This document shows positions 2,983 to 36,152 of a stretch of 64,000 nucleotides of DNA, piece by piece. This DNA comes from Anaerolineae bacterium. GTDB taxonomy: Bacteria; Chloroflexota; Anaerolineae; Aggregatilineales; Phototrophicaceae. The first letter of the stretch is position 1. Every line of letters begins with the position of its first letter. The stretch is taken from assembly GCA_022841825.1 (NCBI GenBank), contig JALHQT010000006.1, forward strand, positions 371,378-435,377, written 5' to 3'. Both the position numbers and the translations under genes were made by a program. The notes under the pieces were generated by a model. It was not told the DNA's origin and ran no database searches. It saw nothing but the letters and a program-made list of their open reading frames with translations.

Positions 2983-2990
2983 AGCGCGAG

Positions 2991-2996
2991 ATTATA
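2991..2996 (-). promoter_or_regulatory. Perfect TATAAT -10 hexamer only 8 nt upstream of the ATG of the GH gene (possible leaderless mRNA)
   Basis: The plus strand reads attata at 2991-2996, which is TATAAT on the minus strand. The start codon is at 2980-2982. No Shine-Dalgarno sequence fits in the 8-nt gap. Confidence 0.3.
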
Positions 2997-3043
2997 GGAG
3001 CGATATGCACCTACGGAAAGTGACGACATACAAACGGCGTACA

Positions 3044-3067
3044 GATGAGCAAAATTGGCTAAAATAG
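3044..3067 (+). repeat. Left copy of an imperfect direct repeat bracketing the low-GC island
   Basis: gatgagcaaaattggctaaaatag (3044-3067) compared with gatgagggagttggttagaatag (5547-5569). They share GATGAG, TTGG and TA-AATAG blocks in the same order, about 17-18 identical positions with one 1-nt gap. Confidence 0.3.
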
Positions 3068-3093
3068 TGATGAGTGAGATGAGGAGCACATGG

Positions 3094-3342
3094 ATGGCAC
3101 TCCACGAACTGATACGCGCTGTGGATGAGCTTTCGAGTGAGGATTTCGAAGCGCTCTACATTCATATCCACGAACAGCGGGAATATCGCCAACACAGTGG
3201 GTCAGTTGATCGACACAATGACCCTATCGACATGCACGATCTGAGGCAAATTCTTGCTGAACTTCGTGAGGGATTCAGTGAGAGCGATCTTGACGAACTC
3301 AAGTGGGCGATGAATGTGGAGTATGTTGACAGGGCTGGGTGA
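3094..3342 (+). CDS. Small acidic helical protein (82 aa), antitoxin-like, function unknown
   Basis: GAGGAG Shine-Dalgarno (3081-3086) lies 7 nt upstream of the ATG at 3094, which is internal to track ORF 3055..3342. Sequence: MALHELIRAVDELSSEDFEALYIHIHEQRE...LRQILAELREGFSESDLDELKWAMNVEYVD. The pattern resembles the small partner proteins that usually precede PIN/VapC toxins, but this is recollection, not a search result. It lies in the low-GC island. Confidence 0.45.
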   Translation: MALHELIRAVDELSSEDFEALYIHIHEQREYRQHSGSVDRHNDPIDMHDLRQILAELREGFSESDLDELKWAMNVEYVDRAG

Positions 3343-3413
3343 CCACGCTAGTTCCCAGAAGACATGCTAATAAGCCGTGCTAAATTTCATAGTGTATGCA
3401 TATCATACATCAC

Positions 3414-3441
3414 TTATTAAGCGTCCGTTGTATGTTAAAAT
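3414..3441 (+). promoter_or_regulatory. Candidate sigma70-type promoter for the NERD-helicase gene
   Basis: TTATTA (3414-3419), a 16-nt spacer, then TAAAAT (3436-3441), in a very AT-rich spacer about 60 nt upstream of the ATG at 3504. The -35 is weak. Confidence 0.25.
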
Positions 3442-3503
3442 AGCTCAATCGAAGAAATGATGGTTTATAGAGGCAGAACGTTGCCTTGTAATAAGGTATC
3501 GAG

Positions 3504-5534
3504 ATGGCTACCTACGGAGAAAACCTTGTTGCGAGCTTGATTGAGAAATTGCCAAAAGATGAGTTTGAAGGTTTTTCAGAAGTACACATATCAACCACAA
3601 CAGCAGCCCACAAGTCACCTGACTTTGTAATTCTTTCCATTACAAGGGGACTATTTGTTGTCGAAGTTAAGGATTACAAGGAAATCCTTGACATCAATCA
3701 TGAATTCATCAGGATACGTCGAAATTCGGGTGAAATTGTTCAGGAGTCAAATCCTCTGGGTATAGCCGAAAAATATGCCCACAATTTGGTCAAACAGTTC
3801 GAAAAGTTTGACGAACTACTTCGAACCCATCAAGGGAAGCGCAAGTTAAAGTTTCCTTGGATACCTACGGCTTTTCTACCGCACATACCTCAGCACATTA
3901 TTGGAGTTATTGAAGACGGTGGCGTCTTCCCTAAGAATACGGTTCTCGGGAAAGAATCTCTTACACCTAATACTTTTGAGTCCGCACTAAGGACGATACC
4001 TAGTCGGTGGAAAATGGAAAACCAGCTTGGAGACGAAACTCGCAAAGTAGTGCGTGGCGTTCTCAAGCCACACCTCGTACTGTCAGACATCAGTACAGGA
4101 AGACCAATAGGTGTCATGAGTCGTCAACAAGAGGAAGAAGTTTACAGACCTATCCAACGTGAGCCACAAAAAGACCAGTATCAACAAACCCTGATACAGT
4201 TTGATGAGTCTGTTTCAGATGAACTGCTTTCTGCTGAAGCAAAAACAACGATCCACGATACCGGCATTCGCTTGGTAAGAGGAGTTGCTGGGAGCGGAAA
4301 ATCATTAGTTTTGGCAAAACGCGCCGAATTTCTAGCCAGTACATATCCAGAAAAGCAACTCTTGCTCTTAGCATTCAACAAAGACCTAATCCTTGATTTT
4401 AAGCGACGCATAAAAGGTGTTCCTCACATCGAGATTAGGACTTTTCACCAACTATGCCATGACATACTTGGGAAGAATTGGCATGAACCCGTTAGTCCTG
4501 AAGGATGGATTGCTCATTTCTTCAACGACTCCTTAATAGAACATGATCTCGACAGCCACTATGTAGCAGAAGAATTCGAATGGCGCGAAGAAACGAATCT
4601 TCATGATAGTGCTAAGTATCTGAATGCAAAGCGCGAAGGGCGACAACGCCCGCTCAGTAAGGCAAAACGCGAAGCTATCAATCAAATCTATGTGAAATAC
4701 CAAGCCTATTTAAAGGAGAATAACAGATTTGATTGGGCAACTGTATCTCAAAAAGCCCTTGAACTGTTGCAGCCTGCAAGCCCATTCTGGCAACGTTACG
4801 ATATTGTGTTAATCGATGAAGCTCAGGATTTCGCTCCAAGCTGGATTTCAGTCGTGAAGAAAGTCCTAAAGCCCGACGGCATTCTATTCATGTGTGATGA
4901 CCCATCACAAGCACTATTTCGCTCCTTCTCGTGGAAACGCAAAGGCATTGATGTCATGGGGCGTACCAGGGTCCTTAAAGTCCCATTCCGCAATACCGAG
5001 CAAATCACAGTCGCAGCTGTCAGCTTAATAGAAGCGAATCAAAAAATCCAAAAAAACGATGACTATGTATTGCCTGACCTAAAGGCAACCGAACTACGAC
5101 AAGGGGAAAAACCAATTCTTGTTGGCTTCAATGACGCCGTAGTAGAGAATGAATTTATGGAGAAATTCATTTACAAGATGCTCAGTATGGGGATACAGCC
5201 TCACAATATCGCAATTCTTTGTCATGACTCCAATCATGTACACTTCTGGAAAAAGTATACAGTTAAGCACAAGATATATGTTGAGTCATTCCGCAAAATG
5301 AAAGGGCTTGAGTTTGAAGTTGTCATTATCCCCGGTTTACATACCGCCTTCAAGGATTACCTTTCGTCGCCAGAAGAGATAATGGAAAGAAGGCGCCATA
5401 TGTATACAGCGATGACTCGCGCCCGAGAAATACTCATCATGACTTTTCAAGGTATTTTTCCTCCAGAGCTAGAACCTATATTACCCTATGTAAGCATGCA
5501 GGAGCCATTCACATCTAGCAGTAGCAAACTTTAG
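3504..5534 (+). CDS. NERD (PD-(D/E)xK nuclease-like) domain fused to a UvrD/PcrA-like SF1 helicase
   Basis: 676-aa ORF. The N-terminus carries PDFVILSITRGLFVVEVKDY, a D...ExK nuclease motif typical of NERD. Walker A is GVAGSGKS (aa ~260), Walker B is VLIDEAQDF (aa ~435), and the C-terminal UvrD_C-like motifs are KGLEFEVVIIPG and YTAMTRAREIL. GC is about 38-43% in spot counts, against about 67% in the flanking genes. Confidence 0.85.
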   Translation: MATYGENLVASLIEKLPKDEFEGFSEVHISTTTAAHKSPDFVILSITRGLFVVEVKDYKEILDINHEFIRIRRNSGEIVQESNPLGIAEKYAHNLVKQFEKFDELLRTHQGKRKLKFPWIPTAFLPHIPQHIIGVIEDGGVFPKNTVLGKESLTPNTFESALRTIPSRWKMENQLGDETRKVVRGVLKPHLVLSDISTGRPIGVMSRQQEEEVYRPIQREPQKDQYQQTLIQFDESVSDELLSAEAKTTIHDTGIRLVRGVAGSGKSLVLAKRAEFLASTYPEKQLLLLAFNKDLILDFKRRIKGVPHIEIRTFHQLCHDILGKNWHEPVSPEGWIAHFFNDSLIEHDLDSHYVAEEFEWREETNLHDSAKYLNAKREGRQRPLSKAKREAINQIYVKYQAYLKENNRFDWATVSQKALELLQPASPFWQRYDIVLIDEAQDFAPSWISVVKKVLKPDGILFMCDDPSQALFRSFSWKRKGIDVMGRTRVLKVPFRNTEQITVAAVSLIEANQKIQKNDDYVLPDLKATELRQGEKPILVGFNDAVVENEFMEKFIYKMLSMGIQPHNIAILCHDSNHVHFWKKYTVKHKIYVESFRKMKGLEFEVVIIPGLHTAFKDYLSSPEEIMERRRHMYTAMTRAREILIMTFQGIFPPELEPILPYVSMQEPFTSSSSKL

Positions 5535-5546
5535 CACCACTTCATG

Positions 5547-5569
5547 GATGAGGGAGTTGGTTAGAATAG
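5547..5569 (+). repeat. Right copy of the imperfect direct repeat bracketing the low-GC island
   Basis: See 3044-3067. It lies between the helicase stop (5534) and the methyltransferase start (5589). Confidence 0.3.
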
Positions 5570-5588
5570 GGATGAACTAAGACACACC

Positions 5589-6236
5589 ATGACCTGCTGC
5601 CGTCAGTGCGAAGGACTGGAAAACCTGTTTAACAGCAAGGTCGCGCGCGAAGACCTGGATGCATACCGCAAGCGCGGCGTGACGGGCACCACCCGTGCGC
5701 TGCTCGATCAGCTGCGCGCGGCGGGTGTTCAGGACATGTCGCTGCTCGATATCGGCGGCGGTGTCGGCGCTATCCAACATGAACTCTTCAAGAGCGGCAT
5801 CGGCAGCAGCCTGGCGGTCGATGCGTCCTCCGCCTATCTCGCGGCGGCGAAGTCCGAGGCGGTGCGGCAGGGTTATGCTGACCGCGCCGAGTATCGCTTC
5901 GGCGACTTCGTGCAAATCGCCCCAGAGCTTGAGCCGCACGACATCGTCACGCTCGACCGCGTCATCTGCTGCTTCCCGGATATGCCCAACATGGTAAGCC
6001 TGTCCGCCGCACGCGCAAAGCGGCTGTACGGCGTCGTCTATCCGCAGGATGGCTGGTGGCTGCGCGGCGCGCAGCACATCGCGGGTGCGGCGCTGGCGCT
6101 CGTGCGCAGCAAATACCGCTTCTACATCCACTCGACGCGCGAAATCGACGCGCTCATCCAAGCAGAGGGGCTGCGCCCACGCTTTCATACCCGCGCGGGG
6201 TTGGTCTGGCAGGTGTCTGTCTACGCGCGGGAGTGA
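5589..6236 (+). CDS. Class I SAM-dependent methyltransferase
   Basis: 215 aa. Motif I is LLDIGGGVGAI, followed by an acidic residue at the end of beta-2 (AVDAS). An N-terminal CCRQC cysteine cluster is present. GC is native. Confidence 0.75.
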   Translation: MTCCRQCEGLENLFNSKVAREDLDAYRKRGVTGTTRALLDQLRAAGVQDMSLLDIGGGVGAIQHELFKSGIGSSLAVDASSAYLAAAKSEAVRQGYADRAEYRFGDFVQIAPELEPHDIVTLDRVICCFPDMPNMVSLSAARAKRLYGVVYPQDGWWLRGAQHIAGAALALVRSKYRFYIHSTREIDALIQAEGLRPRFHTRAGLVWQVSVYARE

Positions 6237-6253
6237 ATCCGCCATAAGACCGA

Positions 6254-6282
6254 TTGACACCATCGCACAATCTGTGATACGT
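6254..6282 (+). promoter_or_regulatory. Candidate promoter (perfect TTGACA -35) ahead of the mini-ORF / RIO kinase leader
   Basis: TTGACA at 6254-6259, with weak -10 candidates (gatacg/tacgtt) 17-18 nt downstream. Confidence 0.25.
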
Positions 6283-6320
6283 TATCCTCGGTTCTGACCC
6301 GTTGTGCGTTATTGAACACG

Positions 6321-6618: not shown

Positions 6619-7653
6619 GTGTTGTACGACACGAATGATCACGACGACCATACCGACCGCTATTCCGAATACGAAGATCGCTTCGACCCCCTGATGACCG
6701 ACCGCCAGGCGCGGCGCAAGCGTAAACCCAAAGCGAAACATGCGCCGAAAAAGGCGGAGGCAGCCCTGCGCGAAGAGGTCGCCGAACTCTCTGGGCTGGA
6801 AGGCGGTTTTCGCACCACCTACAAACCGACGTTGTTTGAGGAGAGCTGGCTGCCCGCGTCGCTCGGTCAATTCTACGACCAGACTCTGATCACCGATGTG
6901 CTGGCGCGCGTGCGCGGAGGCAAAGAAGCGAATGTCTACCGCTGCGCCGCGCACCCGCTGACCGGGCAGATGCTGCTGGCGGCGAAAGTTTATCGCCCGC
7001 GCATGTTCCGCCAAATCCGCGACGACTCGCTCTATCGTGACGGGCGTGCAGTGCTGGATGGCGCGGGGAAAGAAGTGCGCGCGCGCGACTGGCGTCTGCG
7101 CAAAGCGCTGGAAAACCGCAGCGACCTGGGCGTGCAGGCAGCGCAGACCTCCTGGCTGATGTACGAGTACAGTGCGCTGATGACGCTGCATAAGGCGGGC
7201 GCGCGCGTGCCACAGCCGTTCGCCATCAGTCCCAACGCGCTGTTGATCAGCTACGTCGGAGATGAGACGCTCGCCGCGCCCTCCCTGAGCGATGTGTCGC
7301 TTGATGCAAGCGAGGCACGTTACCTGCGCGACGTGGCGCTTGGCAACATCGAACTGATGCTCCAGCACGACATGATTCACGGCGACCTTTCGCCCTACAA
7401 CATCCTGTACTGGGAAGGCGAGATCACGCTGATCGACTTCCCGCAGGTGGTGGCACTGCGCGGCAACCAGCAGGCGGCGGCGCTGCTGCGGCGCGATGTG
7501 ACGCGCGTGTGCGCGTACTTCACCGCCCAGGGCGCGCCGTGCGATGCCGAACGCGAGTTCGCGCGGCTGTGGCAGCGCTACCTACCCTTCACGGCGAAGG
7601 AGATCGAGGCGGAGATGTCGCGCTACGATGTGGAGGAAGACGAGGATCGCTAG
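6619..7653 (+). CDS. RIO-type atypical serine protein kinase
   Basis: 344 aa. Motifs GGKEANVYRC (P-loop-like STGKEANVY equivalent), IHGDLSPYNILYW (catalytic loop) and LIDFPQVV (metal-binding D). N-terminal basic/acidic extension. GTG start. Confidence 0.85.
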   Translation: MLYDTNDHDDHTDRYSEYEDRFDPLMTDRQARRKRKPKAKHAPKKAEAALREEVAELSGLEGGFRTTYKPTLFEESWLPASLGQFYDQTLITDVLARVRGGKEANVYRCAAHPLTGQMLLAAKVYRPRMFRQIRDDSLYRDGRAVLDGAGKEVRARDWRLRKALENRSDLGVQAAQTSWLMYEYSALMTLHKAGARVPQPFAISPNALLISYVGDETLAAPSLSDVSLDASEARYLRDVALGNIELMLQHDMIHGDLSPYNILYWEGEITLIDFPQVVALRGNQQAAALLRRDVTRVCAYFTAQGAPCDAEREFARLWQRYLPFTAKEIEAEMSRYDVEEDEDR

Positions 7654-7693: not shown

Positions 7694-7758
7694 ACCGCGA
7701 AGACGCGAAGGGCGCGAAGAAAACTGTCCGTTCTTCGCGCCCTTCGTGTCTTCGTGGT
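7694..7758. terminator. 28-bp hairpin built from CGAAG heptamer repeats between convergent genes
   Basis: The left arm accgcgaagacgcgaagggcgcgaagaa (7694-7721) pairs with ttcttcgcgcccttcgtgtcttcgtggt (7731-7758). This gives 26 Watson-Crick pairs plus 2 G-U pairs in the plus-sense RNA, and those two positions become C-A mismatches in the minus-sense RNA. The loop is 9 nt. It sits between the RIO stop (7653) and the TIR gene stop (7789). Confidence 0.6.
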
Positions 7759-7788: not shown

Positions 7789-10230
7789 TTACGCCCCGTC
7801 CGTTTCCTCACTTGCCTTCTTGCGCCTGGGCTTGGCGGCGACTTTCGCCTTGGCGGGCGCGGCAAGCTTGTTCGCACGCACTGGCGGCGGCTTTGTGGAC
7901 ACCTCAGGCTTGGCGACTGGGGGTGACTTGTCCTCGACCGGCGCGGTATCGGCTGTCTGGGTTGCTTCCACCGCCACAACCTCGGCGGTCGCCGCCGCAC
8001 CGGGGCGCTGCAAGGTCACTTTGACCGTCGAACGATCCTTGTCCTCCTCGATGATCGCCGTCGGCAGCTCCGCCTCTTTCATCGCCTCCTGCATCCGGCT
8101 GACGCCGCTGCCGTTCAGCTCCATATAGGACATATACTGGAACACGGAGGCGACCGCCGGATTGCGGCGGATCGAGAGCGCTTTCTCCGGGTTCTCGTTC
8201 AGAGTCTCCACCGAAATCCCCTCCGGCAGTTCGCCAAAACTGGTGAACTCTACACGGTCTGGGTAGACCTCGATTACAGTCGGCTGTTCGCGCAGCACCG
8301 GATCTTCATAATCACGATGCACCAGCGCGTTGGCGAACGCCTCGCGCAGCGCAATGTCTGGCACTTCCAGCGCGTCGCGCGCCTCGGTGCCGACGATTCC
8401 ATTGCGCTTGAGACCGCTGCGATAACGCAGGAAGTCCAACCCCGCATCCCACAGGTGGAGCAGGTTGTCACTGGCGATATCGATCTCCGCCTTCGACGAC
8501 GCGCGCTTGACATCGCTGTAGACGACCATTTGCAGCGAGCAGGCGGGGTACTTGTTGGCGATCAGACGGATCGGCGCGAAGCACAAAAATGCCGCCAGAG
8601 TGATCTTTCCCTCTTCCATCAAGCCCAGCAGTTCGAGATGCGCCGCAGGATTCGGGAGATCGAGCTTGGCGCGCCGCGCCAGTTCGCGCGCCAGCGGGCG
8701 GTTGAGCAGCCGCTCGATCAACGCCTGATCGAGGTCTTCAAGATCATACATCTCCAGCCGTCGGCGGTCATAGCTCTTGTGACTCTCATCGTCACCGCTG
8801 AAGAATGAGTTACTGCGCGGCTCTAATGTTGTGGGCGCGGCGGCAGGCGTGGGCTGTGGCTCGGCAGTGGGTGCAGGCTTGGCGTAGTCGCGCAGCGCCG
8901 TGCGCAGGCGGTTGATCAGGTCGGTCGGCGTTTGCGCCTCGAAGACATCCAGCTTCCCCGCATCGGCGCTCGACGAGCGGCGCAGCGCCAGCATGTCCTT
9001 CACCGCGCCGCCATGCTCGGCAAGAAACTCGATAGTGATGCCGGGCGGAATATTGGGCGGAACCAGGCATACTAACCCCGGTCGCCCCCGCACGCGTGCC
9101 TGCCTGAGCGTATAGGCGAGCAGGCTGGTCGTCTCTGATTCCAGCGGATGACCGTAGAAGACGCCGAGGAGCGCCAGATAATAATCGCAGCCTGCGATGG
9201 TGTCATTCAGTACGCTGGCGCTGGCGCTCGTCATCATCGACTGCGCCGAGATCTCCCATTCATCCTTGAAGTCACTTCCCACCATCGATATCACAGCATC
9301 ACGGTAAGGCTCGACCGCCGGGTCATCCGCGAAAGACGCCAGGAACAGGCAGTGCTTCGGCGGTTCAGCGGGAGTGGCGGGGCTGGTTCCAGGCGCGTCG
9401 GTTTCGCGTGGAGCGACCGTCGCCAGGCGCGTGAGGAAGGCTTCCGGCGGCATCCGGTCGTCGGTCACATCAAGCACCTGCGTGGTGCCAAGCTGAAACC
9501 AGATTTTACCGGAGCGCAGCAGCGGGAAGATTGGCTTTTCGAGTTCTTCGGCGTAATGCAGTTCGCGCTGCACCCACTGCGAATTCTCAGAGTCCGGCGA
9601 CATCACCACCACGTAAGCGGCGCAGCCTTCCAACGCCAGCTTGATCTGGCGCATCCACTGGTCGCCGTAGCTGATCGCCCCCTTGTCGATCCAGACGGAA
9701 AAGCCGTTGCTCTCCAGGTATGCCTCCAGCCGCTTGACGTAATCCTCGTCGTTGCGACTGTAGCTGATGAAGACCATACTCTGGCGCATCGCCTGCGCAG
9801 GCGTCCCGGTCGGGTTTTCCGGAATGGTGGGGAGGTCGCTCAAGTTCAGCTTGAGCGGGTTGTAGAGGCTGTTGACCAACTGCGCGGCAGCAGCCGGGGT
9901 CGGACCCTCGCTAAAATCGGCATACTCGTGCTGGCTGAACGGCTCAGGCAGATCTGCCAGGGCTTGCAGCAGGACGATCACGACAGGTTTGCCCGCTTTG
10001 ACCGCCTCGCCCAGGCACCATTGGCACCACTGTGAGGTCACCGAGTAGCCAGAGATCAGATGCAGAAACACATCCGATTGGGCGATGAAGTCCTGGAGTT
10101 GGCTCTTCCATTCTGGTTGCTTATTGAGTGTCGCGTCAAACCAGACCTCGTGATTACCGGTCTTGAGGATTTCGACGACCGACTCCGCTTCAGCTTTATC
10201 GACATGCGCGTAATTGATGAAGACCCGCAT
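7789..10230 (-). CDS. Multidomain TIR protein: TIR - TIR - TIR/DUF4062-like - HATPase_c_4/wHTH (Schlafen-regulator C-terminal half) - K/A/P-rich basic tail
   Basis: 813 aa.
- aa 1-~125: MRVFINYAHVD...SQWCQWCLGEAVKAGKPVVIVLL.
- aa ~153-265: MVFISYSRNDEDYVKRLE...SQWVQRELHYAEELEKPIFPLL. Both have TIR_2-like patterns.
- aa ~295-400: CLFLASFADDPAVEPYRDAV...CDYYLALLGVFYG.
- aa ~500-770: REAFANALVHRDYEDP, DRVEFTSFGELP, RRNPAVASVF, LNGSGVSRM.
- Tail: KPPPVRANKLAAPAKAKVAAKPRRKK. Confidence 0.85.
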   Translation of the reverse strand: MRVFINYAHVDKAEAESVVEILKTGNHEVWFDATLNKQPEWKSQLQDFIAQSDVFLHLISGYSVTSQWCQWCLGEAVKAGKPVVIVLLQALADLPEPFSQHEYADFSEGPTPAAAAQLVNSLYNPLKLNLSDLPTIPENPTGTPAQAMRQSMVFISYSRNDEDYVKRLEAYLESNGFSVWIDKGAISYGDQWMRQIKLALEGCAAYVVVMSPDSENSQWVQRELHYAEELEKPIFPLLRSGKIWFQLGTTQVLDVTDDRMPPEAFLTRLATVAPRETDAPGTSPATPAEPPKHCLFLASFADDPAVEPYRDAVISMVGSDFKDEWEISAQSMMTSASASVLNDTIAGCDYYLALLGVFYGHPLESETTSLLAYTLRQARVRGRPGLVCLVPPNIPPGITIEFLAEHGGAVKDMLALRRSSSADAGKLDVFEAQTPTDLINRLRTALRDYAKPAPTAEPQPTPAAAPTTLEPRSNSFFSGDDESHKSYDRRRLEMYDLEDLDQALIERLLNRPLARELARRAKLDLPNPAAHLELLGLMEEGKITLAAFLCFAPIRLIANKYPACSLQMVVYSDVKRASSKAEIDIASDNLLHLWDAGLDFLRYRSGLKRNGIVGTEARDALEVPDIALREAFANALVHRDYEDPVLREQPTVIEVYPDRVEFTSFGELPEGISVETLNENPEKALSIRRNPAVASVFQYMSYMELNGSGVSRMQEAMKEAELPTAIIEEDKDRSTVKVTLQRPGAAATAEVVAVEATQTADTAPVEDKSPPVAKPEVSTKPPPVRANKLAAPAKAKVAAKPRRKKASEETDGA

Positions 10231-10392
10231 CGTTACAGCTTTCTGTAAAAAGGCGACGGCATAGCCATCAGATCAGGACTACTATAGCGCCATCAGACGC
10301 ACAGAGATACATCTACATAGGCTGTCTTTATCTAGGACAGATCGCCAGCAAGATGCAAAAGAAGAAAAGCATCCCCGGCAAGAGTCCTCACT

Positions 10393-10432
10393 TTAAGCAC
10401 GGTTAAGATTTCCCCCACCTGTGTTAAGCACG
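10393..10432 (+). repeat. Direct repeats TTAAGCACG (x2) and TGTGTTA(A/G) (x2) in the divergent promoter region
   Basis: ttaagcacg occurs at 10393-10401 and 10424-10432. tgtgttaag occurs at 10420 and tgtgttaga at 10441. The region lies between the TIR gene start (10230) and the ABC operon start (10536). Confidence 0.3.
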
Positions 10433-10535
10433 CTGGCAATTGTGTTAGAGCGCGCTACCGTATGCGGGCATCGGGTGTCCCTAACCCGATGTTATTGTGT
10501 ATCCCGCTGTCGTGTTTAATGAGGGAGACTCCTGA

Positions 10536-12047
10536 ATGTTGCGGAAACTGCTGATTGTCGTCGGTATCGCCCTGTTGGCGGTGCTGCCTGTCCAGGCGCA
10601 GGACGCGCCCATGCTGGTGATTTCGCTGGCAAACGACCCCACGTCGCTTTTCCCGCCGCGCGGCGCAGACATCACCGCGGGCAACGCGGCAAGCCCGCTC
10701 TATGACACCCTCGTCACCTATGATGTGGATGGCAACATCGTCCCGGAACTCGCCGAAAGCTGGGAGATCAGCGAAGATGGCACGGTCTATACCTTCGTGC
10801 TGCGCCAGGGCGTGACCTTCCACAACGGCGAAACCTTCAATGCCGATGCGGTCATCGCCACCTGGGAGACCGGCTCGGACGATAGCAACGATTACGCTCA
10901 GGACTACCAGGTCGCCACCAGTGTCGAAGCGGTGGATGAGTACACGGTGCAGATCACGACCGACGGTCCCAAGCCGCTGTTCATGAATCAGCTCACCGGT
11001 TGGGGCATCGTCCCACCTGCGTACATCCGCGAAGTCGGCATTGACGCCTTCGAGCAGGCTCCAGTGGGCGCAGGTCCCTTCCGCTTCGTCGAGCGCATCG
11101 CGGGCGACCGGATTGTGTATGAGGCGTTTGAGGATTACTGGCAGGAAGGGCTGCCGCTGGTCGGCGGCGTCACCTTCCGCATCATCCCCGAACCGACGAC
11201 TCGCCTTGCCGCCATCCAAACGGGTGAGATCGACATCGCCAACCGCCTGAGCATCGACGAAGCCGCCCTGCTGGAAGGCAGCGACGCTGTCACCCTCGTC
11301 TCGTACCCGAACGACCGCGTCTACTACGTTGCATTCAAGAACATCGGCAACGGCGAAGGCAGCCCGCTGCTCGACGAGCGCGTCCGTCAGGCGCTGAACT
11401 ACGCAGTCAACCGCCAGGGCATCATCGACGGAATCTTCGGCGGTGGCGCGAGCCTGGTGGACAGCTTCATCATCTCGACCAACCTCGGTCACAATCCCGA
11501 AATCCAACCCTATGCCTACGACCCCGAACGCGCCAGCGCACTGCTGGCAGAAGCGGGTTTCGCCGACGGATTCGCCATCAGCATGGGCTGCCCGACCGAC
11601 GCTTATCTGAGCATCAACGAAGTCTGCCTCGCCGTCCAGCGTGACCTGGGCGCGATTGGCATTGACCTGACCGTCGAGTTCAAGACCAGCAACAGCTTCT
11701 GGAGCGAAGCCGAGTACGGCGCGGTCGGTCCCATGTACGTCGATAGCTGGTCGAGCGGCACGGGCGAGGCGCTCGGTCGTCTCGAAGGCGCGCTCGTCCC
11801 TGGCAACTACTACAACACCTGGCACGACGACACCATCACCGACCTGATCAACCAGATTTCGGTCACGGTGGATCGTGACGAACGCGCCGCGCTGTACAGC
11901 GAAATCCAGACGTACATGCACGAAAATCCGCCCTTCATTTACCTGTACGCACCGCAGATCTTCGAAGCAACGAGCGCGAGCATCGAAGGCTACGCGCCGC
12001 GCGCCAACGAAGGCTACGACCTGACCAACGTCTCCAAGGCAGGGTGA
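10536..12047 (+). CDS. ABC transporter substrate-binding protein, family 5 (peptide/nickel, DppA/OppA-like)
   Basis: 503 aa. Signal peptide MLRKLLIVVGIALLAVLPVQAQ. The core is typical of SBP_bac_5 (TFHNGETFNADAV, YEAFEDYW, RLAAIQTGEIDIA). GAGGGAG Shine-Dalgarno. Confidence 0.9.
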   Translation: MLRKLLIVVGIALLAVLPVQAQDAPMLVISLANDPTSLFPPRGADITAGNAASPLYDTLVTYDVDGNIVPELAESWEISEDGTVYTFVLRQGVTFHNGETFNADAVIATWETGSDDSNDYAQDYQVATSVEAVDEYTVQITTDGPKPLFMNQLTGWGIVPPAYIREVGIDAFEQAPVGAGPFRFVERIAGDRIVYEAFEDYWQEGLPLVGGVTFRIIPEPTTRLAAIQTGEIDIANRLSIDEAALLEGSDAVTLVSYPNDRVYYVAFKNIGNGEGSPLLDERVRQALNYAVNRQGIIDGIFGGGASLVDSFIISTNLGHNPEIQPYAYDPERASALLAEAGFADGFAISMGCPTDAYLSINEVCLAVQRDLGAIGIDLTVEFKTSNSFWSEAEYGAVGPMYVDSWSSGTGEALGRLEGALVPGNYYNTWHDDTITDLINQISVTVDRDERAALYSEIQTYMHENPPFIYLYAPQIFEATSASIEGYAPRANEGYDLTNVSKAG

Positions 12048-12059
12048 AGCCATAGGAAC

Positions 12060-12178
12060 GAGTGATGAGTAACGAGTGACGAGTCATGAGGAAAACGGAG
12101 TGCGTGGCAGTAATGCACGTTCGCACCACGCACTCCGCACACGTCTAGAGACTCGTTACCCGTCACTGGAAATCACTC
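12060..12178. repeat. Composite heptamer-repeat hairpin (GAGTNAN arms plus an inner GGAGTGCGTGG hairpin)
   Basis: gagtgat gagtaac gagtgac gagtcat at 12060-12087. The inner perfect 11-bp stem pairs ggagtgcgtgg (12097-12107) with ccacgcactcc (12126-12136). The imperfect complementary outer arm is gagactcgttacccgtcactggaaatcactc (12148-12178). It lies between the SBP and permease genes. Confidence 0.6.
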
Positions 12179-12190
12179 CCGGAGCGTGCC

Positions 12191-13108
12191 ATGTCTGCCT
12201 ACATTTTTCGTCGGATATTCCAATCGCTCCTGTTGATTCTGGGCGTGCTCGTCCTGGTCTTCTTCATGGTGCGCCTGACGGGCGACCCGGTCGCGCTGAT
12301 GGTCTCGCGCGAGGCGACCAACGAACAGCGCGAGGCGATGCGCGTCGCCCTCGGCTTGGATCGTCCGCTGATTGTGCAGTTCGGCGACTACATGGGCGGG
12401 GTGCTGACGGGCAATCTTGGTCAGTCTCTCAGCCTCGGCTTGCCGAACGCCACCTTGATCGGGCAGCGCCTGCCCGCCACCTTTGAACTCGCGCTCACCT
12501 CACTGATCGTCGCGCTCGCCCTGTCGATCCCGCTCGGCGTTCTGGGCGGGATGCACCCCGGCTCCCCTGTCGATTGGCTGGGGCGCACGGTCGGCTTGGC
12601 GGGACAGACGATTCACAGCGTCTGGCTGTCGATGATCCTGATCCTGATCTTCGCCGTGCAGCTCCGCTGGCTGCCCTCGTTCGGGCGTGATGGCTGGGAG
12701 TCGCTCATCCTGCCGACCATCGCGCTCAGTCTGGGCAGCATCGGGCAGTTGGTGCGCCTGGCGCGCTCAACCGTACTGGAAGTGCGGCGCGAAAACTTTG
12801 TGCGCACCGCCCACGCCAAAGGCATGAGCGGGCAGCGCGTCGCCTTTTCGCACATCGCGCCCAATGTCGCCATCCCGCTCATCAGCGTGATCGGCATCGG
12901 CTTCACCTATTCGCTCGGCGGCTCGGTCTATATCGAGTCGGTCTTCTCATGGCCCGGTCTTGGCTCGCTGTTGAGCAATGCCATCGGCGACAGCGACTTC
13001 CCACTCGTGCAGTCGATCACGATTTTTATCGCCCTCTTCGCCATTACGATCAACCTGGTCACCGACATCCTGTATGGCGTCTTCGATCCACGTATCCGAC
13101 AGAGGTAA
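12191..13108 (+). CDS. ABC transporter permease (DppB/OppB-like)
   Basis: 305 aa, about 6 TM helices, BPD_transp_1 EAA-like loop (VRTAHAKGMSGQRVAFSHIAPN). GGAG Shine-Dalgarno. Confidence 0.9.
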   Translation: MSAYIFRRIFQSLLLILGVLVLVFFMVRLTGDPVALMVSREATNEQREAMRVALGLDRPLIVQFGDYMGGVLTGNLGQSLSLGLPNATLIGQRLPATFELALTSLIVALALSIPLGVLGGMHPGSPVDWLGRTVGLAGQTIHSVWLSMILILIFAVQLRWLPSFGRDGWESLILPTIALSLGSIGQLVRLARSTVLEVRRENFVRTAHAKGMSGQRVAFSHIAPNVAIPLISVIGIGFTYSLGGSVYIESVFSWPGLGSLLSNAIGDSDFPLVQSITIFIALFAITINLVTDILYGVFDPRIRQR

Positions 13109-13114
13109 ATCGAC

Positions 13115-14041
13115 ATGACCGACGCCGTACTCGCCACACGCAAAATCGCCCTGATGGAGCCAAGCGCGCCTTCACAGACACAATGGCGTAAAGTCCTGCG
13201 CGCCTTCCTGCGCTCGCCCAGTGCGATGTTTGGCGTCGTCGTCCTGCTCATCCTCGTCGCCTGCGCTCTGTTTGCCGAACGCATCGCGCCCTTCGCACCC
13301 ACCTACGGCGATTTCGCCGCATCACGTCTCCCACCCGCCTGGATAGAGGGCGGCACATGGACACACCCCTTCGGCACCGACCGCCTGGGGCAGGACATCT
13401 TCACGCGCATCGTCTACGGAGCGCGCGTCTCGCTGCTGGTCGGCTTTTTCGGCGCGCTGCTCGCCAGCACCCTCGGTGTGCTGCTCGGCATCCTGGCAGG
13501 CTATTTCGGCGGTTGGATCGATACGGTCATCAGCGCCTTCGTCAACATCATTCTCTCAGTCCCGTACCTGGTGCTGGTCGTGGTCGTGGCGACGATCTTT
13601 GGGCGCAGCCTGCTGAATGTGATCCTCATTTTCGGCGTCACCGGCTCCCCCGTCTTCGTGCGGCTGGTGCGCGGGGAAGTGCTGCGCCTGCGTGCGCAGG
13701 AATACGTCGAGGCGGCGCGGTCACTGGGCGCAGGCTCCGGGCGAATCATCGGCGCGCATCTGCTGCCAAACCTGGTCGGACCGCTGATCACGGTGGCGAC
13801 TTACGAGATGTCCGCGATGATCTTTTACGAGGCGGGCTTGTCCTATCTGGGGTTAAGCGTGCCGCCGGAAGTGCCAAGCTGGGGCAACATGCTCCAGGCG
13901 GGGCAAAGCCTGCTGCCCGTCCTGCCCTGGATCGCCATCTTCCCCGGCTTGGCGATTGCGCTCACGGCGCTGGCGATGAACTTCGTGGGAGATCGTCTAA
14001 GGGACATCCTCGACCCCAGAGTGCGGGAGGGCAGCGGATAG
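13115..14041 (+). CDS. ABC transporter permease (DppC/OppC-like)
   Basis: 308 aa. OppC N-terminal pattern (HPFGTDRLGQDIFTRIVYGAR) and EAA loop (YVEAARSLGAGSGRIIGAHLLPN). Confidence 0.9.
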   Translation: MTDAVLATRKIALMEPSAPSQTQWRKVLRAFLRSPSAMFGVVVLLILVACALFAERIAPFAPTYGDFAASRLPPAWIEGGTWTHPFGTDRLGQDIFTRIVYGARVSLLVGFFGALLASTLGVLLGILAGYFGGWIDTVISAFVNIILSVPYLVLVVVVATIFGRSLLNVILIFGVTGSPVFVRLVRGEVLRLRAQEYVEAARSLGAGSGRIIGAHLLPNLVGPLITVATYEMSAMIFYEAGLSYLGLSVPPEVPSWGNMLQAGQSLLPVLPWIAIFPGLAIALTALAMNFVGDRLRDILDPRVREGSG

Positions 14042-14111
14042 TCGGCGCGCAATCTCACGCCTCACGGGCGACCGTCCTCACCTACACTGGTAGGGATAAA
14101 GCCGATGACTT

Positions 14112-15274
14112 GTGAGACGCAGCATGACCACTATCGCGCCCGCGCAACCGACACGCCAGACATCAACGCAGCCCGTGATGCTGGCAGCGTTCGCCATCCT
14201 ACTGGTCGGCGTCGCTGCCTATCTTTTCCTCAGCCGCGCAAATCTGGGCGCGTGGGACTTCCGCAATAACCTGTGGGCACCGGCACACCTACTCGTGGGC
14301 GGGCGCAGCCCTTACCTGATCGAATCCCTGTTTCCTGGCAGCAACGCCGTCTGGATGCCGACGGTGATCGGCGCGTTCTTCCCGCTCGGCTGGCTCACGG
14401 AAAGCCAGGCGACCGCCCTCTGGGTCGTCATCAGCGCGGGCGCATACCTGTCGCTGATTATTCTATCGAGCGGCAAAGCGCGTCCAGCCCGCTGACGCTT
14501 GGCATCAGTATTGGCATGATGCTGATCTTCCCGCCCTTCATATCAGGGATGCAGTTGGGGCAGTTCAGCGTCATTGCCGCGCTGCTGATGCTCCTCGCAG
14601 GTCGTCTGGTCGTTCGCGCCGCATCGCCGATCTGGATCGGGCTGCTCGTCGCGCTCGCCAGCGCCAAGCCACAGCTTATCCTACTGCCCGTGCTGGGGCT
14701 GCTATGGTACACTTGGCGCACACAGGGCGCGGCGCGCGTGGCACAGATGCTGCTGGCAAGCATCGTGTGGTCGCTGCTGCTCACGCTGCCGCTCTGGCTC
14801 GGCGCTCCCAATTGGCTTGAGGGCTTTCTTGAGGCGCAGGCACGGCGGGGTAGCTGGTCGCAGCCATCCGCCTATGTGCTGCTGCCTCTCCATCTGGGCG
14901 ACGTCGGCGTCGCGCTGTGGGCGCTCCTGGCGCTGGTCGTCCTCGCCTTCAGCCTGTGGCGGTGGCGAAAGCTGCCTCCGCAGCAGGCGCTCGCCTGGAG
15001 TTTGGCACTCAACGTGCTGATCACGCCCTACGTCTGGAGCTGGGATTTCGTTCTGCTCGTCCCATTGTTTGTCGGCACCTTCTTTGGGCTGCGTTTGCGC
15101 CTGCACAGGATCGCGCTGCTGCTGGGTTACATGGTGATCTGGTACGTGATGGTGGCGCAGCGCCTGACGACGAACAACGACGACTCCCTCTACTGGTGGC
15201 TCCCCTGGGCGATCATCGCACTGATCGCGCTCGTGCAGGCGCTGAATCGCCGCGCACCTCAGCCAGCAGCCTGA
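14112..15274 (+). pseudogene. GT87/DUF2029-like polytopic membrane glycosyltransferase split by a frameshift near 14470-14495
   Basis: ORF 14112..14495 (...AYLSLIILSSGKARPAR*) and ORF 14273..15274 (meaningful part ...SPLTLGISIGMMLIFPPFISGMQLGQFSVIAALLML...) are both hydrophobic and together form one membrane protein. The second frame is offset by -1. The first ~65 codons of the second ORF are Arg/Gly-rich out-of-frame noise. Confidence 0.55.
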
Positions 15275-31890: not shown

Positions 31891-31970
31891 GGCAGCGTCT
31901 CCAAGGAACAAAGCAACGTTTGTTTTAGGTTACCCAGACCGCCATACAACATGCTAAAGGATCACGTAAT

Positions 31971-34795: not shown

Positions 34796-34903
34796 ATCCT
34801 AGTATAGCACAAATGCTCTAAAACCAACTGTAATCTGGCAGATTCTCCACATGAACGGTTACATTATGCCGCGAAATCATCTTCTGCGGAAAAGGACTCT
34901 TGC

Positions 34904-35839: not shown

Positions 35840-35842
35840 ATT

Positions 35843-36097: not shown

Positions 36098-36108
36098 CAT
36101 TGGCGTCC

Positions 36109-36152
36109 CTGGCGTCATGGCGGCTGAACGTATTGAACCGCCATGACGCCAG
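36109..36152. terminator. Perfect 15-bp hairpin between convergent genes
   Basis: ctggcgtcatggcgg (36109-36123) pairs with ccgccatgacgccag (36138-36152), with a 14-nt loop. It uses the same word family as 27575-27636. Confidence 0.6.

What the first reader, a model, noticed from the sequence alone, without database searches (positions are those of the whole stretch)
7789..10230. Monocistronic 813-aa protein fusing a TIR-TIR-(TIR/DUF4062-like) array to the C-terminal half of a Schlafen-type regulator and a histone-H1-like tail: candidate single-gene immune or NAD-signalling system
**Seen.**
- The ORF stands alone. It has its own divergent 305-nt promoter region and a convergent hairpin terminator at 7694-7758.
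- Residues 1-~125 and ~153-~265 each show the bacterial TIR_2 pattern: F-I-[NS]-Y-x-x-x-D at the start, then S-Q-W-[CV]-x-x-E-h and a P-[VI]-hydrophobic strand.
- Residues ~295-400 (CLFLASFADDPAVEPYRDAV...CDYYLALLGVFYG) look like a third, degenerate unit of the same fold.
- Residues ~500-770 carry REAFANALVHRDY, DRVEFTSFGELP, RRNPAVASVF and LNGSGVSRM. I recognise this as the HATPase_c_4 plus winged-helix half of AlbA_2/Schlafen-type regulators, but here the AlbA_2 domain is replaced by the TIR array.
- The last ~60 aa are K/A/P-rich (AAPAKAKVAAKPRRKK).

**Known.** Bacterial TIR domains act as NADases or signal synthases in Thoeris, in some CBASS/Pycsar effectors, and in retron- and pAgo-linked systems.

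**Inference.** No partner typical of those systems (SIR2/SLOG/Macro ThsA, cyclase, pAgo, STING) is present within 10 kb. This may therefore be a self-contained TIR effector tethered to nucleic acid, with an architecture I cannot place in a named system.
Basis: partly seen in the sequence, partly recalled or inferred. Interest (0 to 1): 0.8.

Follow-up and report, generated by a model that had tools for sequence, protein, structure and literature searches.

The report
TIR NADase fused to GHKL ATPase switch
This stand-alone gene encodes a likely NAD-degrading immune protein in which three TIR-type domains, only one still catalytic, take the place of the Schlafen nuclease in front of an ATP-driven assembly module recently shown to switch on another bacterial antiviral enzyme.

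Summary
The 813-aa ORF at 7789-10230 (-) is real, monocistronic and under purifying selection.

**Domains**
- TIR1, residues 1-125. The catalytic Glu is replaced by Cys72.
- TIR2, residues 151-265. Catalytic Glu223 is kept, and this is the most constrained domain.
- A DUF4062/NIR TIR-like domain, residues ~293-450. Both Glu of its catalytic motif are lost.
- A PF13749 GHKL ATPase module, residues 483-743. The ATP/Mg residues E630 and N634 are kept.
- A disordered K/A/P-rich tail.

It is essentially right. There is no winged helix, though, and the "regulator half" is the ATPase part of the recently named "Schlatpase" supradomain.

**Family.** The protein belongs to a rare family of 43 clusters among 1.84 billion representatives. 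In this family a TIR-like domain replaces Schlafen in front of the GHKL module. Most members are NLR-like proteins with caspase, TIR or EAD effectors and a STAND NTPase. The window lineage has lost the STAND part.

**Most likely function (inferred, not shown).** ATP-dependent GHKL oligomerisation brings the TIR domains together and switches on TIR2 NADase activity for abortive-infection-type defence. The trigger is unknown.

**Verdict.** New variant of known kinds, moderately interesting.

The parts
7789..10230 (-). Whole ORF, 813 aa plus stop; monocistronic
   Evidence: dN/dS is 0.11 against the 86%-identical orthologue P0001.
9856..10230 (-). TIR1 (residues 1-125), TIR_2-type. The catalytic Glu position holds Cys72 (codon 10015-10017).
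   Evidence: Pfam TIR_2, two stretches. PADLOC ThsB model hits residues 2-86. In the MAFFT alignment with AbTir, BtTir and TLR fragments, Cys72 falls in the catalytic Glu column, where P0003 keeps Glu. dN/dS 0.10.
9436..9780 (-). TIR2 (residues 151-265), TIR_2-type. Catalytic Glu223 is kept (codon 9562-9564, motif SQWVQRE).
   Evidence: Pfam TIR_2 best stretch 153-259. PDB phmmer hits to BtTir, AbTir and SARM1, with E223 aligned to their W-x-x-x-E Glu. Foldseek hits to SARM1, AbTir and SPARTA TIR. dN/dS 0.010 with 98% aa identity.
8881..9354 (-). DUF4062/NIR TIR-like domain (residues ~293-450). The family motif S-Y-T-E-Y-E-Y reads S-L-L-A-Y-T-L here (Ala372 codon 9115-9117, Thr374 codon 9109-9111).
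   Evidence: Pfam DUF4062 at 25.0 bits against a 24.7 cut-off. Family alignment. AF2 block-mean pLDDT is 64-92 over most of the domain, falling to 43-45 in disordered stretches at its edges. Foldseek hits to CMP N-glycosidase, 2-deoxyribosyltransferases and TIRs. dN/dS 0.17.
8785..8880 (-). Disordered P/A/T-rich linker (residues 451-482)
   Evidence: pLDDT below 50. dN/dS 0.25-0.45.
8356..8784 (-). N-terminal subdomain of the GHKL module (residues 483-625, called 'MID' in my notes)
   Evidence: hhalign to AlbA_2/HATPase_c_4 proteins at 99.95% probability, E 3.6e-38, covering this region plus the next. Foldseek hit to 3LMM, E 1e-13. PADLOC PDLC02402 hits residues 481-753. dN/dS 0.075.
8002..8355 (-). 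Bergerat-fold ATP-binding domain PF13749 HATPase_c_4 (residues 626-743). Motif residues: E630 (8341-8343), N634 (8329-8331), D658, S664-x-G666, G707-S-G709.
   Evidence: Pfam E 1.2e-17. E630, N634, D658, S664, G666 and G709 are invariant in 23 family members. E-x-x-x-N matches E314/N318 of RzAgo (bioRxiv 10.64898/2026.05.29.728809). dN/dS 0.09.
7792..8001 (-). Disordered K/A/P-rich tail (residues 744-813)
   Evidence: Composition. pLDDT about 30. dN/dS 0.23 against P0001 and 0.72 against P0002. P0003 has an NB-ARC module in its place.
7694..7758 (.). Long GC-rich inverted repeat between the convergent TIR and RIO1 genes; likely a bidirectional terminator
   Evidence: -50.7 kcal/mol, z -6.7.
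10231..10535 (.). 305-nt divergent intergenic region. No sigma-70-like match was found in it.
   Evidence: Homology with the P0001 contig stops at about 10345, where the ABC-transporter block begins.

Best explanation
**What it is.** The gene encodes a single-polypeptide NAD+-targeting effector of the bacterial conflict/immunity type. Its core is a TIR-like (DUF4062/NIR) domain followed by a PF13749 GHKL ATPase module. This is the "Schlatpase" supradomain with the Schlafen nuclease swapped for a TIR-superfamily domain. In most relatives this core sits inside NLR-like proteins: caspase, TIR or EAD effectors at the N-terminus, and NB-ARC or NACHT plus TPR or HEAT repeats at the C-terminus.

**How this lineage differs.**
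- It carries two extra canonical TIR domains at the N-terminus.
- It has lost the STAND module, which is replaced by a disordered basic tail.
- It has lost the catalytic Glu in TIR1 and in the NIR domain. TIR2 (Glu223) is the one catalytic centre left.

**Proposed mechanism (inferred).**
1. ATP binding to the GHKL module (E630, N634) drives dimer or tetramer formation, as shown for RzAgo.
2. This clusters the TIR-type domains. The two pseudo-catalytic ones act as scaffold or activator partners.
3. The composite TIR2 active site assembles.
4. NAD+ is cleaved, either depleted or converted to a nucleotide signal, and growth of an infected cell stops.

Shown here: the domain identities, the residue states, the family architecture and the purifying selection. 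Inferred: ATP-gated assembly, NADase activity and the immune role. Unknown: the trigger.
For: **Domains**
- Pfam TIR_2 x2, DUF4062 and HATPase_c_4; PADLOC ThsB/TIR models.
- hhalign to AlbA_2/HATPase_c_4 proteins: 99.95% probability, E 3.6e-38, covering only the ATPase module.
- AF2 model with pLDDT 84.8; Foldseek top hit 3LMM at E 1e-13, and TIR/N-glycosidase-type hits for the NIR part.
- Full-length model: the TIRs match SARM1, AbTir and SPARTA.

**Residue states**
- Cys72, Glu223, and Ala372/Thr374.
- GHKL motif residues are invariant across the family.

**Selection**
- dN/dS is 0.11 overall and 0.010 on TIR2.

**Family**
- 43 clusters at E<=1e-30.
- Architectures with caspase, EAD8, TIR, NB-ARC, NACHT, TPR and HEAT.
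- P0003 sits in a TIR/SIR2/STAND-rich defence island.
- P0004 is adjacent to a separate DUF4062 gene.
- P0020 (DUF4062-GHKL-TIR_2) is another stand-alone, STAND-less form.
- In the NJ tree the window clade is sister to NB-ARC-bearing P0003 and nested among STAND-bearing members.

**Literature**
- The PF13749 GHKL domain binds and hydrolyses ATP and drives tetramerisation that activates the fused effector (bioRxiv 10.64898/2026.05.29.728809).
- DUF4062/NIR domains are Glu-dependent NADases in antiphage defence (bioRxiv 10.64898/2026.05.01.722283, 10.64898/2026.09.04.749371, 10.64898/2026.06.25.731849).
- A NERD+UvrD candidate defence gene lies 2.3 kb away in low-GC DNA.
Against: - No biochemical or phenotypic data exist for this protein or any member of its family.
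- No recognisable sensor domain remains, so the trigger is unexplained.
- The locus looks chromosomal and is syntenic in three related genomes (RIO1 and GT87 flanks), not an obvious mobile defence island.
- Two of the three TIR-type domains have lost the canonical Glu.
- The adenine-contacting Asp of the classical D-x-G-x-G box is not obvious; the sequence reads S-F-G. ATP binding is therefore extrapolated from one characterised homologue that I could not align directly.
- The full-length model has pTM 0.42, so no domain arrangement can be claimed.
- The NJ tree has no support values.
Confidence: 0.5

Rival explanations
1. Thoeris-like signal producer. TIR2 makes a nucleotide signal (a cADPR isomer or His-ADPR type) that activates an effector encoded elsewhere in the genome. 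The protein would be a sensor/synthase rather than a self-contained killer.
For: The best TIR matches are ThsB-type PADLOC models and the NCBIfam Thoeris type III ThcB4 model. The relative P0003 lies next to a TIR-TIR-SIR2_2 gene and other TIR genes.
Against: No ThsA-like partner (SIR2, SLOG or Macro) was found among the ORFs scanned, which cover about 0.4-25 kb plus the largest ORFs of the 64-kb window. The ThcB4 score is 53 bits against a cut-off of 220. In the family, these domains sit in the position where NLR-like proteins carry their effectors.
Confidence: 0.15
2. Non-immune housekeeping or regulatory NAD+/ATP-linked enzyme, retained vertically in one bacterial clade.
For: The gene sits at the same chromosomal locus in three related genomes. 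Purifying selection is strong. The neighbours are housekeeping-type genes: RIO1, an ABC transporter and GT87. P0004 and P0016 also sit among metabolic genes.
Against: Relatives combine the same core with caspase, EAD8, TIR and STAND modules, and P0003 sits in a defence island. The family is very rare and patchy. The accessory parts are swapped quickly between relatives.
Confidence: 0.2
3. One reading: a TIR effector tethered to DNA or RNA through a histone-H1-like tail and a winged-helix regulator half, activated on nucleic acid.
For: The last 45 residues carry net +7 on an otherwise acidic protein. Basic tails are also present in P0001 and P0002.
Against: There is no winged helix: homology ends before the regulators' HTH. 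The tail is disordered (pLDDT about 30). It is the fastest-evolving part (dN/dS 0.23 and 0.72). P0003 has NB-ARC in its place.
Confidence: 0.1
4. Decaying remnant of an NLR-like gene that lost its STAND module and is no longer functional.
For: The STAND module is lost, and so is the catalytic Glu in two of the three TIR-type domains.
Against: The 813-codon frame is intact. dN/dS is 0.11 overall and 0.010 for TIR2. The architecture is maintained in at least two related genomes, and in a third as far as its truncated contig shows.
Confidence: 0.05

Closest known systems
Schlatpase supradomain proteins (SLFN_AlbA_2 + PF13749 GHKL ATPase), e.g. RzAgo SLFN-pAgo and C. diphtheriae DIP2311 (PDB 3LMM)
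   Same: The whole ~260-aa ATPase module is homologous (hhalign 99.95%; Foldseek 3LMM E 1e-13). The E-x-x-x-N Mg/gamma-phosphate motif is kept. An effector domain sits directly N-terminal of the module. Fusions of the supradomain to NACHT and APAZ are described in bioRxiv 10.64898/2026.05.29.728809.
   Different: There is no SLFN_AlbA_2 domain; a DUF4062/NIR TIR-like domain occupies its place. There is no C-terminal HTH and no pAgo. The expected effector chemistry is NAD+ cleavage, not tRNA cleavage.
DUF4062/NIR NADase defence systems (Swarozyc, Evangelion, Vulcan, Vesta, NIR-Avs2)
   Same: A DUF4062 fold precedes an auxiliary or oligomerisation region. Single-gene systems are common. Association with NLR-like proteins and with a short pAgo is reported in bioRxiv 10.64898/2026.09.04.749371.
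   Different: The window's DUF4062 has lost the E-Y catalytic Glu residues. The auxiliary region is a PF13749 GHKL module, which is not mentioned in the main texts of those three preprints. Two canonical TIR_2 domains are added.
Bacterial NLR-like STAND proteins with N-terminal effectors (Avs, bNACHT, NB-ARC/TPR conflict systems of Kaur et al. 2020, PMC7159879)
   Same: Relatives P0003, P0014, P0015, P0017, P0021, P0022 and P0024 have exactly this grammar, with the NIR-GHKL core between effector and STAND.
   Different: The window protein has no STAND NTPase and no repeat sensor. The GHKL insert is not described in the main text of PMC7159879, PMC8195603, PMC13581612 or 10.1101/2022.07.19.500537.
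Thoeris ThsB and other TIR NADases (AbTir, BtTir, SARM1, SPARTA TIR-APAZ)
   Same: TIR_2 fold; the W-x-x-x-E catalytic motif in TIR2.
   Different: No ThsA, APAZ/pAgo, SAM or ARM partner. A tandem array in which only one unit is catalytic.
pAgo-associated SIR2-Schlafen-APAZ proteins (Ryazansky 2018, og_40; PADLOC Aga_SIR2-PNTD1-PNTD2 and Aga_SIR2-Kinase-PNTD1-PNTD2 models)
   Same: An NADase domain is followed by the same GHKL-type module: PADLOC PDLC02402 hits residues 481-753 at 1.6e-12 and PDLC02418 hits 621-755.
   Different: No APAZ and no Argonaute nearby; TIR-type domains instead of SIR2. Reading 'Aga' as Ago-associated is my own interpretation.

Membership tests
TIR-domain NADase (Pfam TIR_2) | TIR fold recognised by a profile above the curated cut-off | tested here: met
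   TIR_2 at 151 bits against a cut-off of 28, two stretches. Structural matches to SARM1, AbTir and SPARTA.
TIR-domain NADase (Pfam TIR_2) | Catalytic Glu of the W-x-x-x-E motif | tested here: met
   Met in TIR2 (Glu223). Not met in TIR1 (Cys72).
TIR-domain NADase (Pfam TIR_2) | NAD+ cleavage activity | not testable with these tools
   Needs an enzyme assay.
Thoeris | ThsB-type TIR protein reaching the family model cut-off | tested here: not met
   NCBIfam ThcB4 at 53 bits against a cut-off of 220. PADLOC ThsB hits are domain-level only.
Thoeris | Adjacent ThsA-type effector (SIR2, SLOG or Macro) | tested here: not met
   None found among the ORFs scanned, which cover about 0.4-25 kb plus the largest ORFs of the window.
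DUF4062/NIR NADase systems | DUF4062 domain | tested here: met
   25.0 bits against a 24.7 cut-off, which is borderline. 23 of 35 relatives hit the model, best E 1.7e-40. Model and Foldseek agree.
DUF4062/NIR NADase systems | Catalytic Glu of the E-Y motif, required for defence in Swarozyc, Vulcan, Vesta and Avs2 | tested here: not met
   S-Y-T-E-Y-E-Y reads S-L-L-A-Y-T-L in the window, P0001 and P0002. It is kept in P0003 and most of the family. A compensating Glu366 in the preceding loop cannot be excluded.
Schlatpase supradomain | PF13749 GHKL ATPase module with the E-x-x-x-N motif | tested here: met
Schlatpase supradomain | SLFN_AlbA_2 (PF04326) domain N-terminal of the ATPase | tested here: not met
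   No PF04326 hit. The hhalign match starts after the AlbA_2 columns.
Schlatpase supradomain | ATP binding and ATP-driven oligomerisation | not testable with these tools
   Inferred from RzAgo (bioRxiv 10.64898/2026.05.29.728809).
Bacterial NLR-like / STAND conflict proteins | STAND NTPase (NB-ARC, NACHT or nSTAND) domain | tested here: not met
   None in the window protein, and none in the other window ORFs that were scanned. Present in relatives.
Linker histone H1 | Globular winged-helix H1/H5 domain | tested here: not met
   No Pfam hit. The tail is only K/A/P-rich and disordered.
Short pAgo systems (SPARTA/SPARSA) | APAZ domain and an adjacent short Argonaute | tested here: not met
   The PADLOC Aga models match only the TIR and GHKL parts. 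No pAgo among the neighbours.

The most novel reading that the evidence does not exclude
The PF13749 GHKL module may be a general ATP-gated assembly switch for many effector types, not only the Schlafen nuclease. In the exhaustive-search hits it occurs without AlbA_2 next to DUF4062/NIR, TIR_2, caspase and metallophosphoesterase domains, and PADLOC SIR2-containing models match the same module. On this reading the window protein is a sensor-less "TIR-ATPase". Its two pseudo-catalytic TIR-type domains would template a single active TIR2 within one chain, and its activity would be gated directly by cellular ATP or nucleotide state rather than by a phage-protein sensor.
Probability: 0.25. Interest if true: 0.7.

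Novelty: new variant of a known kind. Interest (0 to 1): 0.55.

Why it matters
Two 2026 lines of work have not been connected in the papers I could read. One shows DUF4062/NIR domains to be TIR-like NADases. The other shows the PF13749 GHKL domain to be the ATP-driven assembly switch of Schlafen effectors.

This protein and its family join the two: a NADase-type domain sits exactly where the Schlafen nuclease sits. If the GHKL module gates TIR/NIR assembly, that gives a second, STAND-independent, nucleotide-dependent way to switch on NAD+-depleting immunity.

The window protein is also a compact 813-aa test case with one catalytic and two pseudo-catalytic TIR-type domains. It could be used to ask how inactive TIRs contribute to composite active sites.

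Tried and rejected
- **Word-indexed homologue searches.** The three searches gave 3, 10 and 3 hits. The third, run with a family profile, added almost nothing.
- **Genome-contig scan.** The family profile was reduced to one generic motif ([AV]NA[LI][VI]HR[DN]Y), and the scan returned only ordinary AlbA_2/HATPase_c_4 regulators at about 30% identity. It gave neither taxonomy nor close relatives.
- **Metagenome-contig scan.** One fragment only.
- **Plasmid tblastn.** One generic hit.
- **Source organism.** No rRNA, tRNA or Rfam hit in the window, and the exact protein is not on record. The organism remains unknown.
- **TIR1 against the PDB.** phmmer with TIR1 alone found nothing. I placed Cys72 through a MAFFT alignment instead.
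- **Promoter.** The sigma-70 scan found none in the 305-nt upstream region.
- **PADLOC name "PNTD1".** A literature search was uninformative.
- **Rejected ideas.** A winged-helix/HTH in the C-terminal half, membership of Thoeris, and a pseudogene remnant.
Full report
**1.

The ORF runs from 10230 down to 7789 on the minus strand: ATG start, 813 codons. Its neighbours are as follows.
- Upstream, a divergent SBP_bac_5 gene starts at 10536. This leaves a 305-nt intergenic region.
- Downstream, a RIO1 kinase gene (6619-7653, +) converges on it.
- Between the two convergent genes lies a 29-bp-stem inverted repeat at 7694-7758. It folds at -50.7 kcal/mol, against -29.7 +/- 3.1 for shuffles (z = -6.7).

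So the gene is monocistronic. A sigma-70 consensus scan found no promoter in the upstream region. That says little for an unidentified organism.

**2. Domain content.**

Pfam finds four domains:
- TIR_2 twice: E 2.4e-44, best stretch 153-259.
- DUF4062 at 297-373: 25.0 bits against a gathering score of 24.7.
- HATPase_c_4 (PF13749) at 652-736: E 1.2e-17.

PADLOC ThsB/TIR models cover residues 2-86 and 145-242.

The DUF4062 call is borderline. It was not reported when residues 285-765 were scanned alone. Three things back it:
- 23 of 35 family members hit DUF4062, down to E 1.7e-40.
- The window sequence aligns with them column by column.
- An AlphaFold2 model of residues 285-765 gives this segment an alternating strand-helix (beta-alpha) fold. 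The model used 16 sequences and has mean pLDDT 84.8. Foldseek matches for this segment are flavodoxin-like folds, CMP N-glycosidase BcmB, nucleoside 2-deoxyribosyltransferases and plant and SARM1 TIR domains. The NIR preprint reports the same spectrum for DUF4062 (10.64898/2026.09.04.749371).

The last 70 residues are 51% Ala+Pro+Lys and disordered (pLDDT about 30). The last 45 residues are basic, net +7, on a protein that is otherwise net -34. "Histone-H1-like" is a compositional resemblance only.

**3. What the C-terminal half is.**

I compared a profile of the family (A3) with a profile of ordinary ~460-aa AlbA_2/HATPase_c_4 "RecG-like" proteins (A5). The result was 99.95% probability and E 3.6e-38 over 260 columns.
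- The match covers residues ~470-745 of the window protein.
- It covers columns 132-393 of 471 in the regulators. That is everything after their AlbA_2 domain and before their C-terminal helix-turn-helix.

Foldseek agrees. The best PDB match is DIP2311 (3LMM), E 1e-13 over about 270 columns. phmmer aligns residues 610-720 to 3LMM residues 282-386.

There is no winged helix.

A 2026 preprint names AlbA_2 + PF13749 the "Schlatpase" supradomain (10.64898/2026.05.29.728809). For RzAgo it shows that:
- the PF13749 GHKL domain binds and hydrolyses ATP;
- E314 and N318 hold the gamma-phosphate and Mg;
- ATP binding drives the tetramerisation that builds the active Schlafen nuclease.

The window protein has the same E-x-x-x-N spacing, E630 and N634. 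These two residues, plus D658, S664, G666, E704, G709 and R712, are invariant in 23 aligned family members.

**4. Catalytic residues.**

I aligned the six TIR units of the window protein, P0001 and P0003 with other family TIRs and with the AbTir, BtTir and TLR stretches printed. In that MAFFT alignment:
- TIR2 Glu223 falls in the W-x-x-x-E catalytic column.
- TIR1 has Cys72 there in the window protein and in P0001. P0003 keeps Glu.

In the DUF4062 domain the family motif is S-Y-T-E-Y-E-Y. This is the "E-Y region" of 10.64898/2026.06.25.731849. The catalytic Glu was shown to be required in KpSwz (E97), Vulcan (E98), VstA (E103) and PsAvs2 (E108).
- In the window protein the motif reads S-L-L-A-Y-T-L (Ala372, Thr374). 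P0001 and P0002 have likewise lost both Glu.
- P0003 and most of the family keep it.
- A Glu366 conserved in the preceding loop cannot be ruled out as a substitute.

So one of the three TIR-superfamily domains looks catalytic.

**5. Selection and synteny.**

Codon-level comparison with the P0001 gene (L003, 83% nucleotide identity) gives dN/dS 0.11 overall. By part:

| Part | dN/dS vs P0001 |
|---|---|
| TIR2 | 0.010 (98% aa identity) |
| GHKL N-subdomain | 0.075 |
| Bergerat domain | 0.09 |
| TIR1 | 0.10 |
| DUF4062 | 0.17 |
| Tail | 0.23 (0.72 vs P0002) |

The gene is maintained by selection. The constraint peaks on the one domain that keeps the catalytic Glu.

The locus is shared with related genomes:
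- The P0002 contig has the same convergent RIO1 gene. Its ORF runs off the contig start, so it is truncated and not a shorter form.
- The P0001 contig has the GT87 gene that lies at 14.2-15.3 kb in the window. It lacks the ABC-transporter block at 10.4-14.2 kb.

The rest of the window is chromosomal housekeeping: GatB, PriA, histidine kinases, T2SSE. No SIR2, SLOG, Macro, cyclase, pAgo, STING or STAND gene was found in the ORFs I scanned.

A NERD+UvrD helicase at 3504-5534 lies 2.3 kb away in a low-GC stretch (0.48-0.53 against about 0.61). It matches a PADLOC candidate model at 6e-43.

**6. The family.**

An exhaustive phmmer search of 1.84 billion cluster representatives with residues 285-765 gave 4999 hits at E<=1e-3, 505 at <=1e-10 and 43 at <=1e-30.

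The top tier consists mostly of 750-1640-aa proteins with a common core: a ~200-aa N-terminal domain followed by the GHKL module. That N-terminal domain is DUF4062 in most. In about a dozen it is a second domain unknown to Pfam ("type B").

| Protein | Architecture |
|---|---|
| P0014 | Caspase-DUF4062-GHKL-NB-ARC-APAF1_C |
| P0017 | Caspase-DUF4062-GHKL-NB-ARC-TPR |
| P0015 | EAD8-DUF4062-GHKL-NACHT-HEAT |
| P0022 | DUF4062-GHKL-TIR_2-NB-ARC |
| P0021, P0024 | Caspase-GHKL-NACHT |
| P0003 | TIR-TIR-DUF4062-GHKL-NB-ARC |

The GHKL position in each was taken from the PF13749 hit and the local segment search. Of 35 members, all hit HATPase_c_4, 23 DUF4062, 12 NB-ARC, 5 NACHT, 6 caspase and 4 TIR_2.

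P0003 is 45% identical to the window protein and the only other lineage with the TIR-TIR-DUF4062 order. Its locus is co-directional with three other TIR-containing genes:
- a TIR gene;
- a TIR-TIR-SIR2_2 gene;
- an nSTAND1/EAD8/TIR_2/FGE-sulfatase gene.

Next to these lie a PLD-SNF2/MmeI-type methyltransferase pair and an AAA_15/DUF4276 pair. This is a defence island.

Other contexts:
- P0004 (type B-GHKL, 449 aa) is followed directly by a separate DUF4062 gene.
- P0020 (DUF4062-GHKL-TIR_2, 609 aa) is a complete stand-alone gene on four contigs, near other TIR and TIR-STAND genes.

A rough NJ tree of the GHKL module, without support values, puts the window clade as sister to P0003. It is nested among members with 350-1065-aa C-terminal extensions. 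The simplest reading is that the STAND module was lost in the window lineage.

The next tier of hits shows the same AlbA_2-less module next to other effectors:
- TIR_2-caspase (P0057, P0065)
- caspase (P0066)
- TIR_2 (P0070)
- TIR_2 with DO-GTPase2 (P0067)
- metallophosphoesterase (P0059)
- DUF4062 (P0063)

PADLOC models named Aga_SIR2-PNTD1-PNTD2 and Aga_SIR2-Kinase-PNTD1-PNTD2 match residues 481-753 and 621-755. This fits the SIR2-Schlafen-APAZ orthogroup og_40 of Ryazansky et al. (10.1101/366930). Reading "Aga" as Ago-associated is my own interpretation.

**7. Mechanism.**

*Shown:* the domain identities, the residue states, the family grammar and purifying selection.

*From established knowledge:* TIR NADases need self-association to form a composite active site. 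The examples I rely on are SARM1, AbTir and SPARTA, from my own knowledge of those systems. The PF13749 GHKL domain is an ATP-driven oligomerisation switch in RzAgo. DUF4062 domains are NADases in defence.

*Inferred:* ATP-bound GHKL modules bring several chains together. The three TIR-type domains per chain form a TIR cluster, in which TIR1 and the NIR domain act as non-catalytic partners. TIR2 then cleaves NAD+.

What starts this is unknown, because the STAND/repeat sensor of the relatives is gone. I put this reading at 0.5.

Rival readings:
- A Thoeris-like signal producer with a distant effector: 0.15.
- A non-immune clade-specific enzyme: 0.2. This is favoured by the stable chromosomal locus.
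- A dead remnant: 0.05. The dN/dS values argue against this.

**8. Comparison and novelty.**

The protein works like a Schlatpase with a different effector, and like the effector end of an NLR-like protein without its NTPase. It is not a member of any of the families I tested:
- Thoeris: no ThsA; ThcB4 model at 53 bits against 220.
- Schlatpase: no AlbA_2.
- Active NIR systems: catalytic Glu lost.
- STAND proteins: no NTPase.
- pAgo systems: no APAZ and no Argonaute.

I found no description of a DUF4062/TIR-PF13749 combination in the main text of:
- the three DUF4062 preprints;
- the SLFN-pAgo preprint;
- Kaur et al. 2020 and 2021;
- the bNACHT preprint;
- the 2026 STAND survey.

These were checked. 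I searched main texts only, not figures or supplements.

I rate this a new variant of known kinds. It is rare: only three or four close relatives turned up in very large collections.

**9. Limits.**
- The source organism is unknown.
- There are no experimental data.
- The full-length model has pTM 0.42, so inter-domain geometry is not interpretable.
- The tree is distance-based.
- ATP binding is extrapolated from one homologue through shared motifs.

Noticed in passing
window 2000-6300 (NERD+UvrD ORF 3504-5534 +; methyltransferase ORF 5589-6236 +): A low-GC stretch (0.48-0.53 against about 0.61) holds a NERD-UvrD helicase that matches PADLOC candidate model PDLC01087 (6e-43) and GajB-type helicase models. 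A small SAM methyltransferase lies next to it. This is probably acquired DNA and a candidate defence gene 2.3 kb from the TIR gene.
   Followed up: partly
window 32016-34742 (-): A 908-aa HerA/DUF87-like ATPase with PADLOC HerA and mad8 hits. The adjacent ORFs 30808-31911, 34877-36118 and 36177-37232 have no PADLOC hit. It could be part of another defence-type system.
   Followed up: no
proteins P0057, P0059, P0063, P0065, P0066, P0067, P0070, P0020 (exhaustive-search hits): PF13749 GHKL modules lacking SLFN_AlbA_2 are fused to TIR_2, caspase, calcineurin-like phosphoesterase, DUF4062 and DO-GTPase2 domains. This suggests the module is a general effector-coupling unit beyond Schlafen.
   Followed up: partly
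L004 10001-12221; L089 8001-10692; family alignment A2: About a dozen family members carry a different ~200-aa N-terminal domain that Pfam does not recognise (motifs VRLWEW, GVGGQ, FVFKERIG, VTWxELE) in front of the GHKL module. P0004 of this type is followed by a separate DUF4062 gene. The C-terminus of P0016 starts a DUF4062 motif that continues in an overlapping ORF, which may be a frameshift or a fusion.
   Followed up: partly
L001 3230-13222: The P0003 locus has four co-directional TIR-containing genes: TIR; TIR-TIR-SIR2_2; a gene hitting nSTAND1, EAD8, TIR_2 and FGE-sulfatase; and TIR-TIR-DUF4062-GHKL-NB-ARC. Beside them are a PLD-SNF2/MmeI-type methyltransferase pair and an AAA_15/DUF4276 pair. 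This is a dense defence island.
   Followed up: no
window 10345-14195 versus L003: The ABC-transporter block (SBP_bac_5 plus two permeases) between the TIR gene and the GT87 gene is absent from the related P0001 contig. There the GT87 gene lies directly upstream of the TIR gene. This is an indel or rearrangement between close relatives.
   Followed up: partly
window 10254-10270 (-): A small hairpin followed by a T-run lies 24-40 nt upstream of the ORF's start codon on the coding strand. It may be chance: 4 terminator-like sites were found against 2.6 expected.
   Followed up: no
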